Source: Longimicrobiales bacterium
Lineage (GTDB): Bacteria; Gemmatimonadota; Gemmatimonadetes; Longimicrobiales; Gaopeijiaceae
DNA: 64,000 nucleotides
Reading direction: 5' to 3'
Assembly: GCA_965116905.1 (NCBI GenBank)
Contig: OZ220732.1
Span: 3,104,001 to 3,168,000 of the forward strand
Shown here: in pieces, positions 20,808 to 25,834 of the stretch
How positions within the stretch are numbered: the stretch's first letter is position 1
Layout of the letters: each line of letters opens with the position of its first letter
Translations under genes and position numbers: made by a program
The notes under the pieces: model-generated
Databases searched by the model: none
Told to the model about the DNA's origin: nothing
What the model saw: only the letters and a program-made list of their open reading frames with translations

Positions 20808-22376
20808 TTATTTCACGCCCGTACTGCCGAAACCGCCGGAGCCGCGCTCCGTTTCGGTCAGCCCCGGCACCTCGTGCACCCGCGGCGACAGGCATCGGCT
20901 GAACACGAGCTGCGCGACACGGTCACCGCGGTTGATCGTAACCGCCTCGGCGCCCGAATTCTGCATCAGGACCTTGAGTTCCCCCCGGTAGTCCGAATCG
21001 ATCGTGCCGGGGCTGTTCGGCAGCGTGATCCCAAACCGCGCCGCCAACCCCGAGCGGGGCCGGACCTGACACTCGAGTCCCGCAGGCATCTCCATGATCA
21101 GCCCCGTCGACGCCGCGTGGATCTGGCCCGGAGCCAGCTGAAAGCTCTCACAACTGCGAATGTCGAAGCCCGCCGCCTCGGCCGACGCACGCGCAGGCAG
21201 GGGAAGATCCGGGTTGGTGGCCAGGCGCTTGAAGCGTACCTCGGGCCCATCGTGCCGGTGCACCGCCTCCTGCCGGCGAAGGGGCTCCATGCTCATCCCG
21301 AACGCCTCGGCGACCGCCCGATGAACGACCCTGCCCCGCGCGACGTTGATCCCCCTGGCAAGGTCGGGATCTTCGGCGCACGCCTGGCGCCATCCGCACC
21401 GCGCCAGATGCATCGCGAACGGCAGCGTCGCGTTGGTCAGCGCCAGCGTCGAGGTGCGCGGCACCGCGCCGGGGATGTTCGACACCCCGTAGTGGATCAC
21501 TCCATCGACCTCGTAAACCGGGTCCTCGTGTGTCGTCGGCCGTATGGTCTCGACACATCCCCCCTGGTCGACCGCGACATCGACGATCACGGATCCGGGC
21601 CGCATCGTTGCGAGGTCCTCCCGCTTGACCAGACCCGGAGCCTTCCCACCCGGTACGAGCACGGCGCCGATCACGAGGTCGGAGCCGCCGAGCTGCTTCC
21701 GAACGGCGTAACGCGTGCTGAAGAGGAGGTTCACGTTGGCCGGCATGATGTCGGCGAGCTGCCGCAGCCGCGGAAGGGACACGTCCATGATCGACACCCG
21801 GGCGCCCAGGCCCGCCGCCATCCTGGCCGCGTGGGTTCCCACGACGCCCCCGCCCAGCACCAGCACCTTGGCGGGCAGAACCCCGGGGACGCCGCCCAGG
21901 AGAATCCCCGATCCGCCCGAGGGACGGCCGAGGTACTTCGCGCCTTCCTGCACCGCCATGCGCCCCGCCACCTCGCTCATCGGCGTGAGGAGCGGCAGGT
22001 CGCCGTCCTCCGGGCCCACCGTCTCGTATGCAATCGCGATCGCGCCGCTGTCGATCACGGCACGAGTCAGCTTCTCGGATGCCGCAAAGTGGAAGTACGC
22101 GAAGACGATCTGTCCCTCGCGCATCAGGGGCCATTCGGAGGCGACCGGCTCCTTCACCTTCATGATCATCGCGGCGCGCTCCCACACCTCCGCGGCGGTA
22201 TCGACAACCTCCGCGCCCGCGCTCGCATAGAAGTCGTCGGTGAAACCGCTGTCCCCGCCGGCCCCGGCCTGCACGAGAACCTCGTGGCCGGCCTTGCTCA
22301 TGGCCTCGGCGCCGGCCGGTGTCAGCGCGACCCTGTATTCGTTCTGCTTGATCTCGGATGGAATGCCAACGACCAT
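20808..22376 (-). CDS. ald-dut: Alanine dehydrogenase fused in-frame to a trimeric dUTP diphosphatase (Ald-Dut)
   Basis: N-terminal ~365 aa Ald (GIPSEIK..EYRVALTP, KVKEP, PMSEVAGR, GGGVVG, DVAVDQGG, NIPGAVPRTST). C-terminal ~145 aa dUTPase with motifs I-V (AGFDI, RSGLA, GTIDSDYRGE, GDRVAQLV, RGSGGFGSTG). No stop codon between them. Confidence 0.9.
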   Translation of the reverse strand: MVVGIPSEIKQNEYRVALTPAGAEAMSKAGHEVLVQAGAGGDSGFTDDFYASAGAEVVDTAAEVWERAAMIMKVKEPVASEWPLMREGQIVFAYFHFAASEKLTRAVIDSGAIAIAYETVGPEDGDLPLLTPMSEVAGRMAVQEGAKYLGRPSGGSGILLGGVPGVLPAKVLVLGGGVVGTHAARMAAGLGARVSIMDVSLPRLRQLADIMPANVNLLFSTRYAVRKQLGGSDLVIGAVLVPGGKAPGLVKREDLATMRPGSVIVDVAVDQGGCVETIRPTTHEDPVYEVDGVIHYGVSNIPGAVPRTSTLALTNATLPFAMHLARCGWRQACAEDPDLARGINVARGRVVHRAVAEAFGMSMEPLRRQEAVHRHDGPEVRFKRLATNPDLPLPARASAEAAGFDIRSCESFQLAPGQIHAASTGLIMEMPAGLECQVRPRSGLAARFGITLPNSPGTIDSDYRGELKVLMQNSGAEAVTINRGDRVAQLVFSRCLSPRVHEVPGLTETERGSGGFGSTGVK

Positions 22377-22425: not shown

Positions 22426-23673
22426 TCAATGCGGGCCGAGGCACAGGGTGTACTGGCGCTCCGGCTCGCAGACCTCCGCCGCCACTCTCACAATGTCGCC
22501 ATCGGTCACGGAATCTATCCGGCCGGCCAGCTCGTCCAGGGTGACAAAGGGCTCGCGGTACAGCGCAAAGCCCGCAAGGCGGTGCAGCCGGGCACCGGGG
22601 GACTCCTGCGAGAGCATGATCTGGCCCTTCACCTGCTCCTTGATCGTGTCCAGTTCGCCGCTGGCAAGACCCTCGGCCGCGATGCGGCGATAGACGTCAC
22701 GAATCGCATCCAGCGCCTCCGATTCCTTTCCGGGACGGGTTCCCGCGTACACGCCGGAGACGCCGCCGAGGGTGTAGAACGACTGGAAGGAGAACACCGC
22801 GTAGGCCAGGGCCAGCTCCTCCCGGACCCTCTGGAAGAGCCTGGAGCTCATTCCTCCGCCGAGCGCCGTCGCCAGCAGGTTCAGCGCGTGCCGATCCGGG
22901 TGCGAGTGGCCAGGCGTCGTGCGGCCCAGCACGATATGCACCTGCGATGCCTCGCGTGCCACCCTGTCCACGCCTTCTTCGGGGGCCGGAGGCGCGGGAA
23001 CGCCGCCAGCCTCGCGCCCGGGTTCGATCTCACCGAACCACTCGTCGGCCAGCCCGAGGAACTCGTCGTGCTCCACCGCGCCCGCCGCCGCCAAGACCAG
23101 GTTCGACCCGACGTAGCCTTCCCGGTGCAGCCGAACCAGGTCATCGCGCGAGACGGCGGCCACCGAATCACGGGTTCCCAGGATCGACCTGCCGTAGGGA
23201 TGCCCCCGCCACAGGCGCTCACCGTGGAGTTCGAACACGAGGTCGTCGGGCGTGTCCTCCACCGCGGCGATCTCCTCGCCGACCACCATCCTCTCCTGGT
23301 CGAGGTCGCGCTCGGCGAGGCGCGGGTCCCGCACCAGGTCCGAGATCACGTCCACCGCCCGGGGCAGATGCTCCGCCAGCACGCGTGCCTCGTAGCCGGT
23401 ATGTTCCCGCGAGGTGTACGCGTTCAGCGAGCCGCCCACGCTTTCCAGCGAGCGTGCGATCTGGCGGCGTGAGCGCGATCCGGTACCGCGAAAGACCAGG
23501 TGTTCCAGCAGGTGGCTGGCACCGGTCTGGCCGGGACTATCGTGGGCCGCGCCCTGCCGCACCCACGCACCCACGGCCACCGAGCGCACACCCGGCATGC
23601 GCTCGGTCAGGACATGCACCCCGTTTCCCAACCGGTCGCACCCAAAGCTCTGCGTGCGGGGATCGCGCCCCAT
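22426..23673 (-). CDS. M16 (pitrilysin) family zinc peptidase
   Basis: Motifs HxxEH (HLLEH), NAYTSRE and LGGGMSSRLFQRVRE; typical position after pnp. Confidence 0.93.
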   Translation of the reverse strand: MGRDPRTQSFGCDRLGNGVHVLTERMPGVRSVAVGAWVRQGAAHDSPGQTGASHLLEHLVFRGTGSRSRRQIARSLESVGGSLNAYTSREHTGYEARVLAEHLPRAVDVISDLVRDPRLAERDLDQERMVVGEEIAAVEDTPDDLVFELHGERLWRGHPYGRSILGTRDSVAAVSRDDLVRLHREGYVGSNLVLAAAGAVEHDEFLGLADEWFGEIEPGREAGGVPAPPAPEEGVDRVAREASQVHIVLGRTTPGHSHPDRHALNLLATALGGGMSSRLFQRVREELALAYAVFSFQSFYTLGGVSGVYAGTRPGKESEALDAIRDVYRRIAAEGLASGELDTIKEQVKGQIMLSQESPGARLHRLAGFALYREPFVTLDELAGRIDSVTDGDIVRVAAEVCEPERQYTLCLGPH

Positions 23674-23704: not shown

Positions 23705-25834
23705 CTAGCTGCCGGCCCCGGCCTTCTCGGCGACCGGAGTCCTCTCCTCCGCGGCCGCGGCCTTCTTGGAGAGGCGCATGCGGCCCTTCTCGTCGATGGA
23801 CAGGAGCTTGACGCGTATGATGTCTCCGCGGTTCACCACGTCCTCGGTCTTGCCGACCCTGTAGTCCGCCAGCTCCGATATGTGGCACAGCCCCTCGACG
23901 CCGGGCATGATTTCAACGAATGCGCCGAATGTCGTGGTGTTCTTGACCGGCCCTTCGTAGATCCTGCCCACCTCCGGCTCCTGCACGATGGCTTCGATCA
24001 TCTCGCGGGCCCTGGCGCCGGCCTCCGAAGACACGGCGGCAATCTTGACGACGCCGTCGTCGTCCACTTCGATGGTGGCGCCGGATTCGTCCTGTATCGC
24101 CCGGATGGTCTTGCCCTTGGGACCGATGATGTCACCGATCTTCTCCGGGTTGATCCGGATCGATTCGATCCTCGGCGCGTAGTCCGAGAGGTCCTCACGG
24201 GGCGACCCGATCGCCGCGTCCATGCGGTCCAGGATGTGCATGCGGCCCCGGCGGGCCCGCTCCAGCGCCTCGCTCAGCAGCTCGAAGGTCAGCCCCTCGA
24301 TCTTGATGTCCATCTGTATGGACGTGACGCCCTTGCGCGTCCCGGCCACCTTGAAGTCCATGTCCCCCAGCGCGTCCTCGAGGCCAAGAATGTCGGTAAG
24401 GACGGCCACACGGTCACCCTCGGAGACCAGCCCCATCGCCACGCCCGCACAAGCGGCCTGCACCGGCACGCCCGCGTCCATCAGGGACAGCGACGCGGAG
24501 CACACCGACGCCATCGAGGACGACCCGTTCGACTCCAGGATGTCCGAGACGATCCGGATCGTGTACGGAAAGTCGTCGTAGTCGGGAAGCAACGGCTGAA
24601 TGGCCCGCTCCGCGAGCGCCCCATGGCCCTTCTCACGCCGCGAAGTCGACCGGATCGGACGCGCCTCGCCCACCGAGAAGGGCGGGAAGTTGTAGTGAAG
24701 CATGAACGACTTGGTGATCTGCTCGGCGCTGTCGATCGAGTCGATGCGCTGCTCGTCCCGCGAAGTCCCGAGGGTCACGACCCCCAGTGACTGGGTCTCT
24801 CCGCGCGTGAACAGCGCGGACCCGTGCGTCCTGGGCAGGAGCCCGACTTCGCAATCGATCTGGCGCACATCGTCGACGCCCCGGCCGTCTGCCCGCAGAC
24901 CCTCGTCGAGGATGCGGGCGCGCACGCTCTTCTTCTCCAGCGACCGGACGACATCCTGCACGTCCCCGTCGGGAGCCGGTCCCTCCGGGTTCTCTTCAGC
25001 CAGTTGCGCCGAAATGTCCTGCGCAACCGCCTTCAGCGCGGCCGACCGGTCCTTCTTGCTGGTTATCCTCACCGCCTCGGCTACGCGCGCCTCGGCCTCC
25101 TCCTCGACACGGCCACGCAGCTCCGGATCCACCTCCTTGGGCACCCACTCCATCGCGGGAACCCTGCGGGGCGCGATGAGCTCCTCCTGGATCTCGATCA
25201 GCTCCCTGATTGCGTCGTGGGCCACCCTCAGGCCTTCGAGGATCTCGGTTTCGGGGACCTGAATGGCTCCTCCCTCCACCATCACGATCGCGCTTGCCGA
25301 GCCGGCCACGACGATGTCGACGTCGGCGTATTCGAGTTGCAGGAAGGTGGGATTGACCACCCAGTTCCCCTGGATCCTCCCGATGCGCACGGATGCCACG
25401 GGTGTGCGGAAGGGGATGACCGACGTGTTGAGCGCCACGGAGGCGCCGATCAGCGTAAGGACGTCCGCGTCGTTTTCCTGGTCCGCACTCAGGACCTGGG
25501 CGTGGATCTGGGTCTCGTAAAAGAACCCGTTGGGGAAGAGCGGGCGCAGGGTGCGATCCGTCAACCTGGAGGAAAGTACCTCCTTCTCCTGGGGCGCCCC
25601 CTCGCGCTTGAAGAAACCACCGGGGATCTTTCCGGCCGCGTAGGCCTTCTCGCGGTATTCCACCGTAAGCGGGAAAAAGGGGAGATGAGTCGGCCTGTCC
25701 TGCACCGTGGCCGTCACCAGTACTACCGTTTCGCCGAACTGGACGAGGCAGGCCCCATGTGCGAGCCGCGCCATGCGGCCCACTTCGAGGACCAGCCGCC
25801 GGCCGGCGAACTGTCGTTCGATTCTGTCTGTCAT
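23705..25834 (-). CDS. pnp: Polyribonucleotide nucleotidyltransferase
   Basis: Motifs FFPLTVEYRE, GKIPGGFFKREG, HGSALFTRGETQ, ESNGSSSMAS and GDMDFKVAG; KH and S1 domains. Confidence 0.98.
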   Translation of the reverse strand: MTDRIERQFAGRRLVLEVGRMARLAHGACLVQFGETVVLVTATVQDRPTHLPFFPLTVEYREKAYAAGKIPGGFFKREGAPQEKEVLSSRLTDRTLRPLFPNGFFYETQIHAQVLSADQENDADVLTLIGASVALNTSVIPFRTPVASVRIGRIQGNWVVNPTFLQLEYADVDIVVAGSASAIVMVEGGAIQVPETEILEGLRVAHDAIRELIEIQEELIAPRRVPAMEWVPKEVDPELRGRVEEEAEARVAEAVRITSKKDRSAALKAVAQDISAQLAEENPEGPAPDGDVQDVVRSLEKKSVRARILDEGLRADGRGVDDVRQIDCEVGLLPRTHGSALFTRGETQSLGVVTLGTSRDEQRIDSIDSAEQITKSFMLHYNFPPFSVGEARPIRSTSRREKGHGALAERAIQPLLPDYDDFPYTIRIVSDILESNGSSSMASVCSASLSLMDAGVPVQAACAGVAMGLVSEGDRVAVLTDILGLEDALGDMDFKVAGTRKGVTSIQMDIKIEGLTFELLSEALERARRGRMHILDRMDAAIGSPREDLSDYAPRIESIRINPEKIGDIIGPKGKTIRAIQDESGATIEVDDDGVVKIAAVSSEAGARAREMIEAIVQEPEVGRIYEGPVKNTTTFGAFVEIMPGVEGLCHISELADYRVGKTEDVVNRGDIIRVKLLSIDEKGRMRLSKKAAAAEERTPVAEKAGAGS

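What the first reader, a model, noticed from the sequence alone, without database searches (positions are those of the whole stretch)
20808..22376. In-frame fusion of alanine dehydrogenase and dUTPase, both catalytically intact
Seen: one 522-aa ORF holds a complete Ald followed, via a ~15-aa linker (FGMSMEPLRRQEAVHRHDGPEV, ~21240-21296), by a dUTPase with all five motifs. Established: Ald is usually a hexamer and this dUTPase class is a trimer, so a shared 3-fold axis would make the fusion structurally feasible. I do not recognise this as a described architecture. Inference: it may be a selected bifunctional enzyme linking alanine/redox metabolism to dUTP sanitising, here just upstream of mreBCD. 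It could equally be a recent stop-codon loss: CAG at 21272-21270 is one transition from TAG and is followed by GAG-GCG-GTG, a possible ancestral dut start.
Basis: partly seen in the sequence, partly recalled or inferred. Interest (0 to 1): 0.75.

Follow-up and report, generated by a model that had tools for sequence, protein, structure and literature searches.

The report
Clade-wide alanine dehydrogenase–dUTPase gene fusion
In five related genera of uncultured bacteria, the neighbouring genes for alanine dehydrogenase and dUTPase are joined into one gene that keeps both sets of active-site residues; the join likely arose once by accident and is likely kept because the dUTPase lost its own start signal, not because the two enzymes cooperate.

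Summary
The fusion is real, old and not found in print. One 522-aa ORF holds a complete alanine dehydrogenase and a complete trimeric-type dUTPase, the genome's only copy of each. It is fused in 61 of 62 genomes examined from five Longimicrobiales genera (53 of 53 in this genus), which form one clade on independent markers. Relatives outside the clade carry ald and dut as adjacent separate genes. Catalytic residues are invariant and both domains are under purifying selection (dN/dS about 0.13), while the linker varies from 15 to 49 residues and is nearly unconstrained (0.65). Against functional coupling: one nested lineage has split the gene again, relatives lose ald or dut independently, and neither domain shows extra clade-specific change. 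Best reading: an accidental neighbour fusion, locked in by dut's dependence on ald translation. A hexamer capped by two dUTPase trimers, possibly NAD(H)-responsive, remains untested. This scan had not noted it before.

The parts
20808..22376 (-). ald-dut fusion ORF, 522 aa
   Evidence: one open match in 53 of 53 genomes of the genus
21291..22376 (-). Alanine dehydrogenase part, residues 1-362 (R15, K75, H96, D270; G175-G177-G180 and D198 of the NAD site)
   Evidence: TIGR00518 504 bits; PF05222 and PF01262; residues counted; dN/dS 0.133
21243..21290 (-). Variable linker, residues 363-378
   Evidence: 15-49 residues between F359 and R381 across 78 sequences; dN/dS 0.65; pLDDT under 50 at 368-376
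20808..21242 (-). Trimeric-type dUTPase part, residues 379-522 and stop
   Evidence: NF001862, TIGR00576; PF00692; motif residues; dN/dS 0.129
22426..23673 (-). Upstream neighbour: M16-family peptidase (context, conserved gene order)
   Evidence: PF00675 and PF05193; order kept in relatives
23705..25834 (-). Upstream neighbour: polynucleotide phosphorylase (context, tree marker)
   Evidence: TIGR03591 964 bits
19676..20719 (-). Downstream neighbour: mreB, first of mreB-mreC-mreD-mrdA-rodA (context, tree marker)
   Evidence: order kept in relatives

Best explanation
One gene encodes an alanine dehydrogenase joined by a variable linker to a dUTPase; the join likely arose once when two adjacent genes merged, and the two enzymes likely work independently on one chain, kept together because the dUTPase lost its own start signal. 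Step by step. Shown: in relatives the order is pnp, M16 peptidase, ald, dut, mreB, with the dut start often overlapping or touching the ald stop. Inferred: dut was translated by coupling to ald, and one indel or stop loss in the ancestor of five genera put it in the ald frame. Shown: both domains keep their catalytic residues and are under equal purifying selection, while the linker changes length freely but stays in frame. Inferred: a frame break now silences the genome's only dUTPase unless a new start codon lies at hand, so the fusion is hard to undo (a ratchet); it was undone once, where an overlapping ATG is present. Predicted from family knowledge: Ald parts form the usual hexamer and the tethered dUTPase parts form trimers, most simply two per hexamer.
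For: Fused in 61 of 62 clade genomes examined: 53 of 53, 3 of 3, 3 of 4, 1 of 1, 1 of 1 by genus. One clade on PNPase+MreB+M16, SH-aLRT 100 under two models. Outside it, no fusion among the rest of 201 family genomes or 301 phylum genomes, though in-frame neighbours separated by stops occur (12 and 8 rows). Of 45 split genomes outside the clade, 14 have an NTGA stop-start overlap and 15 more a start codon within -20 to +12 nt of the stop (not a random sample). K75, H96, D270, N300 and the dUTPase core residues are the same in 78 of 78 sequences. dN/dS 0.133, 0.652, 0.129 for Ald, linker, dUTPase over 96 non-independent pairs. 13 linker lengths among 44 genes, all in frame; 4 of 44 have no ATG/GTG/TTG in the linker and 26 of 44 none with a ribosome-site-like motif. 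Secondary split in G095 and 23 related database proteins, nested in the clade (AU test p 7e-7). Clade-specific changes per 100 columns are no higher in Ald (7.7, 3.3) or dUTPase (5.6) than in MreB (11.8), M16 (6.7) or PNPase (8.2).
Against: No protein product, activity or oligomer was observed. A ratchet and a mild benefit of tethering predict much the same sequence pattern. Ald was kept in all 62 clade genomes but is missing from this locus in 10 fetched loci of 8 outside genera, which a real functional link could also explain. The Ald substrate-binding domain, which carries the tether, lost 14 otherwise conserved positions of 182 against 1 of 180 in the NAD domain. A GTG ten codons before the dUTPase core is kept in 9 of 9 members of the window's subclade, so an internal start is not excluded there. 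G097 is a long branch, unplaced on the Ald-only tree, and keeps a Met just before the dUTPase core, so a second origin is possible.
Confidence: 0.65

Rival explanations
1. The fusion is selected because the domains co-assemble: an Ald hexamer would carry a dUTPase trimer on each face of its three-fold axis, and the NAD(H)-driven opening and closing of Ald would tune dUTPase activity to the redox state.
For: Near-complete fixation over five genera. [quoted passage not shown] An Ald-like hexamer is known to control another enzyme by NAD+ (bioRxiv 10.1101/2025.10.31.685773, abstract and passages). Clade-specific changes K7, E36Q and Y352H lie in the substrate-binding domain.
Against: Linker of 15-49 residues with dN/dS 0.65; natural re-splitting; no excess of clade-specific changes over neighbouring genes; independent loss of ald or dut in relatives; no shared substrate or product (established biochemistry). 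The known regulator lacks the catalytic lysine, which is kept here in 78 of 78.
Confidence: 0.15
2. The genes share a frame but the cell makes mostly two proteins, by an internal start in the linker or by cutting the exposed linker.
For: In the window, ATG at M361 and GTG at V372 each follow a ribosome-site-like motif, and the GTG is kept in 9 of 9 subclade members. The linker is predicted to be disordered. NCBI lists 160-162-aa dUTPases from this clade.
Against: No start position is shared across the clade; 4 of 44 linkers have no canonical start codon and 17 of 44 no ATG. Three of those four NCBI proteins were found inside unbroken fused frames, so they are gene-calling choices; the fourth (P0125) was not in my loci. 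The motif before M361 comes from conserved Ald codons (sequence). An internal start would remove the need to keep the frame, yet 13 linker lengths stay in frame.
Confidence: 0.12
3. The fusion arose more than once inside this clade (for example separately in genus g69), which would hint at repeated selection.
For: Linkers of different genera share no sequence; G097 keeps an Ald-like ending and a Met before the dUTPase core and is unplaced on the Ald tree.
Against: G097 joins the other fused genomes at SH-aLRT 100 on independent markers under both models; two changes explain the 27-row tree; no fusion outside the clade in 201 family and 301 phylum genomes.
Confidence: 0.07
4. A recent stop-codon loss or an assembly error in this genome.
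For: CAG at 21272-21270 is one change from TAG.
Against: 53 of 53 genomes of the genus are fused; CAG is found in 1 of 9 closest sequences.
Confidence: 0.01

Closest known systems
NAD-dependent L-alanine dehydrogenase (TIGR00518; PDB 2eez, 2vhw, 8hye)
   Same: Full-length match, 50-54% identity to solved structures; catalytic H96 and D270 named in PMC4691113 are kept.
   Different: Carries a C-terminal dUTPase; none of the 60 listed PDB sequence hits spans both parts; Met301 is Ile.
Homotrimeric dUTPase (PF00692, TIGR00576)
   Same: All five motifs present (motif names recalled; residues counted); the only such gene in the genome.
   Different: N-terminally fused to a 362-residue hexamer-forming enzyme.
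Nucleocapsid-dUTPase fusion of Mason-Pfizer monkey betaretrovirus (PMC1802613, abstract)
   Same: A trimeric dUTPase tolerates an N-terminal partner on a flexible linker.
   Different: Viral; the partner is a small nucleic-acid-binding domain, not an oligomeric metabolic enzyme.
Alanine dehydrogenase-like protein (ADLP) with CoA transferase, Thermus thermophilus (bioRxiv 10.1101/2025.10.31.685773)
   Same: An Ald-fold hexamer that carries a second enzyme; the precedent for the bold reading.
   Different: ADLP is inactive, lacks the catalytic lysine and binds its partner without a covalent link; here K75 is invariant and the partner is fused.
Lineage-restricted fusions of adjacent operon genes (general class, recalled)
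   Same: Neighbouring, probably coupled genes merged once; variable linker; occasional re-splitting.
   Different: This pair of enzymes has no shared pathway, and the pairing was not found in the papers searched.

Membership tests
Alanine dehydrogenase | Score over the TIGR00518 equivalog cut-off, both Pfam domains | tested here: met
   504 vs 391.85 bits; PF05222, PF01262
Alanine dehydrogenase | Catalytic and substrate residues R15, K75, H96, D270 | tested here: met
   K75, H96, D270 in 78 of 78; R15 in 77 of 78, the other truncated; residues named in PMC4691113
Alanine dehydrogenase | NAD site: glycine motif, D198, S134, M301 | tested here: inconclusive
   G175, G177, G180, D198, S134 in 78 of 78; M301 is Ile in 46 of 78 including the window
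Alanine dehydrogenase | Hexamer with alanine/pyruvate activity | not testable with these tools
   needs purified protein; six or three full chains exceed the complex predictor's size
Homotrimeric dUTPase | Score over the family cut-offs | tested here: met
   NF001862 164.9 vs 103; TIGR00576 159.7 vs 102.55
Homotrimeric dUTPase | Five motifs including the C-terminal arm | tested here: met
   All present in the window; D405, R441-S442-G443, D460, Y463, R486, Q489, R511, F516-G517-S518 in 78 of 78; arm glycines 514 and 515 vary (58 and 61 of 78)
Homotrimeric dUTPase | Trimer formation and dUTP hydrolysis | not testable with these tools
   needs an assay
ADLP-type NAD+ sensor | Loss of the catalytic lysine (inactive Ald fold) | tested here: not met
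   K75 in 78 of 78; ADLP described
Functionally coupled bifunctional enzyme | Conserved linker or interface | tested here: not met
   Linker 15-49 residues, dN/dS 0.65; no excess clade-specific change
Functionally coupled bifunctional enzyme | The two genes are kept or lost together | tested here: not met
   ald missing from the locus in 10 loci that keep dut; dut not found in 4 of 4 g18 genomes, of which the two checked keep ald; re-split lineage
Functionally coupled bifunctional enzyme | Cross-regulation or channelling between the sites | not testable with these tools
   needs kinetics on fused versus separated domains

The most novel reading that the evidence does not exclude
The protein builds a closed particle of about 330 kDa in which an active alanine dehydrogenase hexamer holds a dUTPase trimer on each face, and NAD(H)-driven movement of the tethering domain changes dUTPase activity, tying dUTP clearance to the cell's redox and nitrogen state.
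Probability: 0.12. Interest if true: 0.75.

Novelty: new variant of a known kind. Interest (0 to 1): 0.4.

Why it matters
It is an undescribed domain architecture that marks a five-genus clade of Longimicrobiales and is hidden by annotation: NCBI names full fusions only 'alanine dehydrogenase' or calls just the dUTPase end. The clade holds the ancestral split state in its relatives, the fused state, and a natural re-split, which makes a clean case for asking whether a fusion of unrelated enzymes is kept by benefit or by a one-way loss of a start signal. It also poses a neat structural question: how one chain satisfies a hexamer and a trimer without polymerising. If the domains proved to regulate each other, it would be a new link between redox state and dNTP-pool sanitising; the present evidence leans against that.

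Tried and rejected
Recent stop loss at CAG 21272-21270: rejected. Assembly error: rejected. G095's split as an assembly error: rejected, 23 database proteins end at the same place. Independent fusions elsewhere: none among the best 120 of 8000 scored candidates in a search scored on residues 300-522, none among the best 150 representatives (weak, since a fusion can hide behind an Ald representative), none in 301 phylum genomes at E 1e-33. Two singletons, P0082 and P0348, look frameshifted and were left out of all counts. Complex prediction of Ald with three dUTPase parts gave no verdict (score 0.00). The single-chain model was mediocre (pLDDT 73, pTM 0.46) and its fold search only returned Ald and transhydrogenase entries in the listed rows. 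The AU test on all 80 rows did not finish and was redone on 27 rows; five gappy rows were dropped from the 80-row tree. The promoter scan found no site and 3 terminator-like sites, as chance gives, none near the gene. Sequencing runs: 11 of 15 listed hold part of the gene, among them runs labelled sponge metagenome and one metatranscriptome with 0.57 of the words; none was laid on the gene, so junction coverage, expression and habitat stay unconfirmed at read level, and the small-share runs are not used. Literature: 0 papers with all of alanine dehydrogenase, dUTPase, fusion; 1 with the first two, a tuberculosis drug review seen as a listing only; nothing relevant.

Full report
The observation. 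The minus-strand ORF at 20808-22376 is open for 522 codons. Its first 363 residues pass the alanine dehydrogenase equivalog cut-off (504 against 391.85 bits) and residues 380-521 pass two dUTPase cut-offs (Pfam). A tblastn of each part against the whole genome (one contig, 97% complete) finds no second trimeric dUTPase and no second Ald, only a distant hit at 25% identity; PF00692 hits once and the dimeric family PF08761 not at all, though that model passed its cut-off in none of the 14 control genomes. The neighbours are pnp and an M16 peptidase upstream, and mreB, mreC, mreD, mrdA, rodA downstream.

How far it reaches. The whole protein matches one open frame in 25 of 25 genomes of the genus and in none of 16 from two other families of the order. 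With a junction query, 53 of 53 genomes of the genus are fused. Among 201 family genomes, 16 give a full-span match without a stop and 12 a full-span match with stops; only the best 150 matches were listed, the rest being too weak to span the junction. The fused ones outside the genus fall in g61 (3 of 3), g67 (3 of 4), g66 and g69 (one genome each seen). In 301 phylum genomes, 23 are fused, all in these genera, and 8 have the two genes in frame with stops between, 7 of them in other families. Record titles name Longimicrobiales and Gemmatimonadota. The protein search gives 77 further full-length fused clusters at 67-97% identity, then Ald-only proteins; scored on residues 300-522 it shows no further Ald-dUTPase family among the best 120. 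PMC11651109 (passages) describes a host-associated subgroup of the related Gaopeijiales; I did not test whether it is this clade.

History. On concatenated PNPase, MreB and M16 proteins (80 rows, five gappy rows dropped), all 26 fused rows plus the split G095 form one clade at SH-aLRT 100; a mixture model on 24 rows gives the same. Forcing G095 out is rejected (AU p 7e-7) and two changes suffice (27 rows). The Ald tree agrees at SH-aLRT 90 but leaves G097 unplaced. These are quick trees without bootstrap, and G097 is a long branch. Outside the clade the order pnp, M16, ald, dut, mreB is usual. Of 45 split genomes outside the clade, 14 have the dut start overlapping the ald stop as NTGA, 15 have a start codon within -20 to +12 nt, 15 lie further off and one has a 2.4-kb insert (chosen by hand, partly for being in frame). 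Translational coupling is inferred from this layout.

What is selected. Across 78 fused sequences K75, H96, D270, N300, the NAD glycines and D198 are invariant, as are the dUTPase core residues of all five motifs (Ald residues as named in PMC4691113, passages; dUTPase motif names recalled). Exceptions: Met301 is Ile in 46 of 78, and two arm glycines vary. Over 96 close, non-independent pairs from 44 genes, dN/dS is 0.133 for Ald, 0.129 for dUTPase and 0.652 for the linker. The linker takes 18 lengths from 15 to 49 residues in the proteins and 13 lengths in the 44 genes. At least 12 frame-keeping length changes against one frame break has a rough probability of 2e-5 if a third of indels keep frame. 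So the shared frame is selected. No start codon is shared in the linker: 4 of 44 have none, 17 no ATG, 26 none with a ribosome-site-like motif; but a GTG at V372 is kept in all 9 members of the window's subclade.

Tests of functional coupling. First, G095's split is real: its Ald is 99% identical to a 377-aa cluster, and 23 proteins of two clusters end at the same residue. Its dUTPase keeps the motifs and has an ATG 14 nt before the end of the Ald stop. The fusion can thus be undone where a start is at hand. Second, outside the clade ald is absent between M16 and dut in 10 fetched loci of 8 genera, while genus g18 has no PF00692 match in 4 of 4 genomes and keeps ald in the 2 checked. Third, clade-specific changes per 100 columns in 21 fused against 34 split genomes are 7.7 and 3.3 for the two Ald domains and 5.6 for dUTPase, against 11.8, 6.7 and 8.2 for MreB, M16 and PNPase. 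Pointing the other way: Ald is kept in all 62 clade genomes, and its substrate-binding domain lost 14 conserved positions against 1 in the NAD domain. The single-chain model puts the linker below pLDDT 50.

How it most likely works. One chain, two independent enzymes. Ald hexamers and dUTPase trimers are family knowledge (hexamer); the tether leaves from the substrate-binding domain. That three such domains face each side of the hexamer is recalled from the structure papers, not read here; if so, two dUTPase trimers could cap one hexamer. The fusion most likely came from one frame or stop change between coupled neighbours and persists because the only dUTPase now depends on ald translation (0.65). 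Rivals: selected co-assembly with redox control (0.15), two products from one frame (0.12), more than one origin (0.07), recent accident (0.01).

Against what is known. Each part is an ordinary member of its family by score and residues. No solved structure among the 60 listed spans both. A dUTPase trimer with a flexible N-terminal partner is known from a betaretrovirus (PMC1802613, abstract). An Ald-fold hexamer that controls another enzyme by NAD+ is known from Thermus, but it lacks the catalytic lysine kept here (bioRxiv 10.1101/2025.10.31.685773, abstract and passages). Bacteria without any known dUTPase are described (PMC5122711, abstract), so dut need not be strictly essential; here its selection is shown by dN/dS. 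No paper in the searched library joins the two enzymes (open-licence PubMed Central and bioRxiv only, supplements not searched). NCBI names two full fusions 'alanine dehydrogenase' and lists four 160-162-aa 'dUTP diphosphatase' proteins, three of which I found inside unbroken fused frames. Earlier notes of this scan hold nothing on this fusion.

Verdict. A real, old, undescribed fusion with both halves under selection, most likely an accident of gene order that became hard to reverse. New variant of a known kind; interest 0.40.

Noticed in passing
L171, L172, L181, L182 (genus g18; G045, G177, G153, G225): This genus, outside the fused clade, has no PF00692 dUTPase match in 4 of 4 genomes of 96-100% completeness; in the two checked, ald runs straight to mreB, PF08761 is not found and uracil-DNA glycosylase genes remain. 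A dut-less genus that keeps UDG-family genes.
   Followed up: partly
L039 (G095); protein clusters P0093 and P0121: A natural re-split of the fusion. All 23 proteins keep Asp followed by Val or Ala near the new Ald end, the codons that spell the overlapping ATG in G095, which may mean the new start is conserved.
   Followed up: partly
L132, L133, L138, L140, L147, L148, L160, L166, L168, L170: ald is missing between the M16 peptidase and dut in 10 loci of 8 genera; in 8 of them dut sits within 56 nt of the M16 stop. Whether ald lies elsewhere in those genomes was not checked.
   Followed up: partly
L051, L053, L054 and NCBI proteins P0123, P0124, P0126: Public annotation calls only the C-terminal 160-162 residues as dUTPase inside unbroken fused frames, hiding the fusion.
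   Followed up: yes
window 21474-21476 (residue 301): Ald Met301, a nicotinamide contact and hinge residue in the M. tuberculosis enzyme, is Ile in 46 of 78 fused sequences and Met in 34 of 34 split relatives.
   Followed up: partly
L026, L027, L030 (family f3): dUTPases of family f3 are only 44-46% identical to the window's, against 59-71% in the window's family, while their Ald is 67-70%; faster change or replacement of dut there.
   Followed up: no
L069 and L164: Inserts of about 2.0 and 2.4 kb lie between ald and dut; contents not read.
   Followed up: no
P0082 and P0348: Two singleton proteins join Ald sequence to out-of-frame stretches near the junction; probably assembly frameshifts, not checked on DNA.
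   Followed up: no
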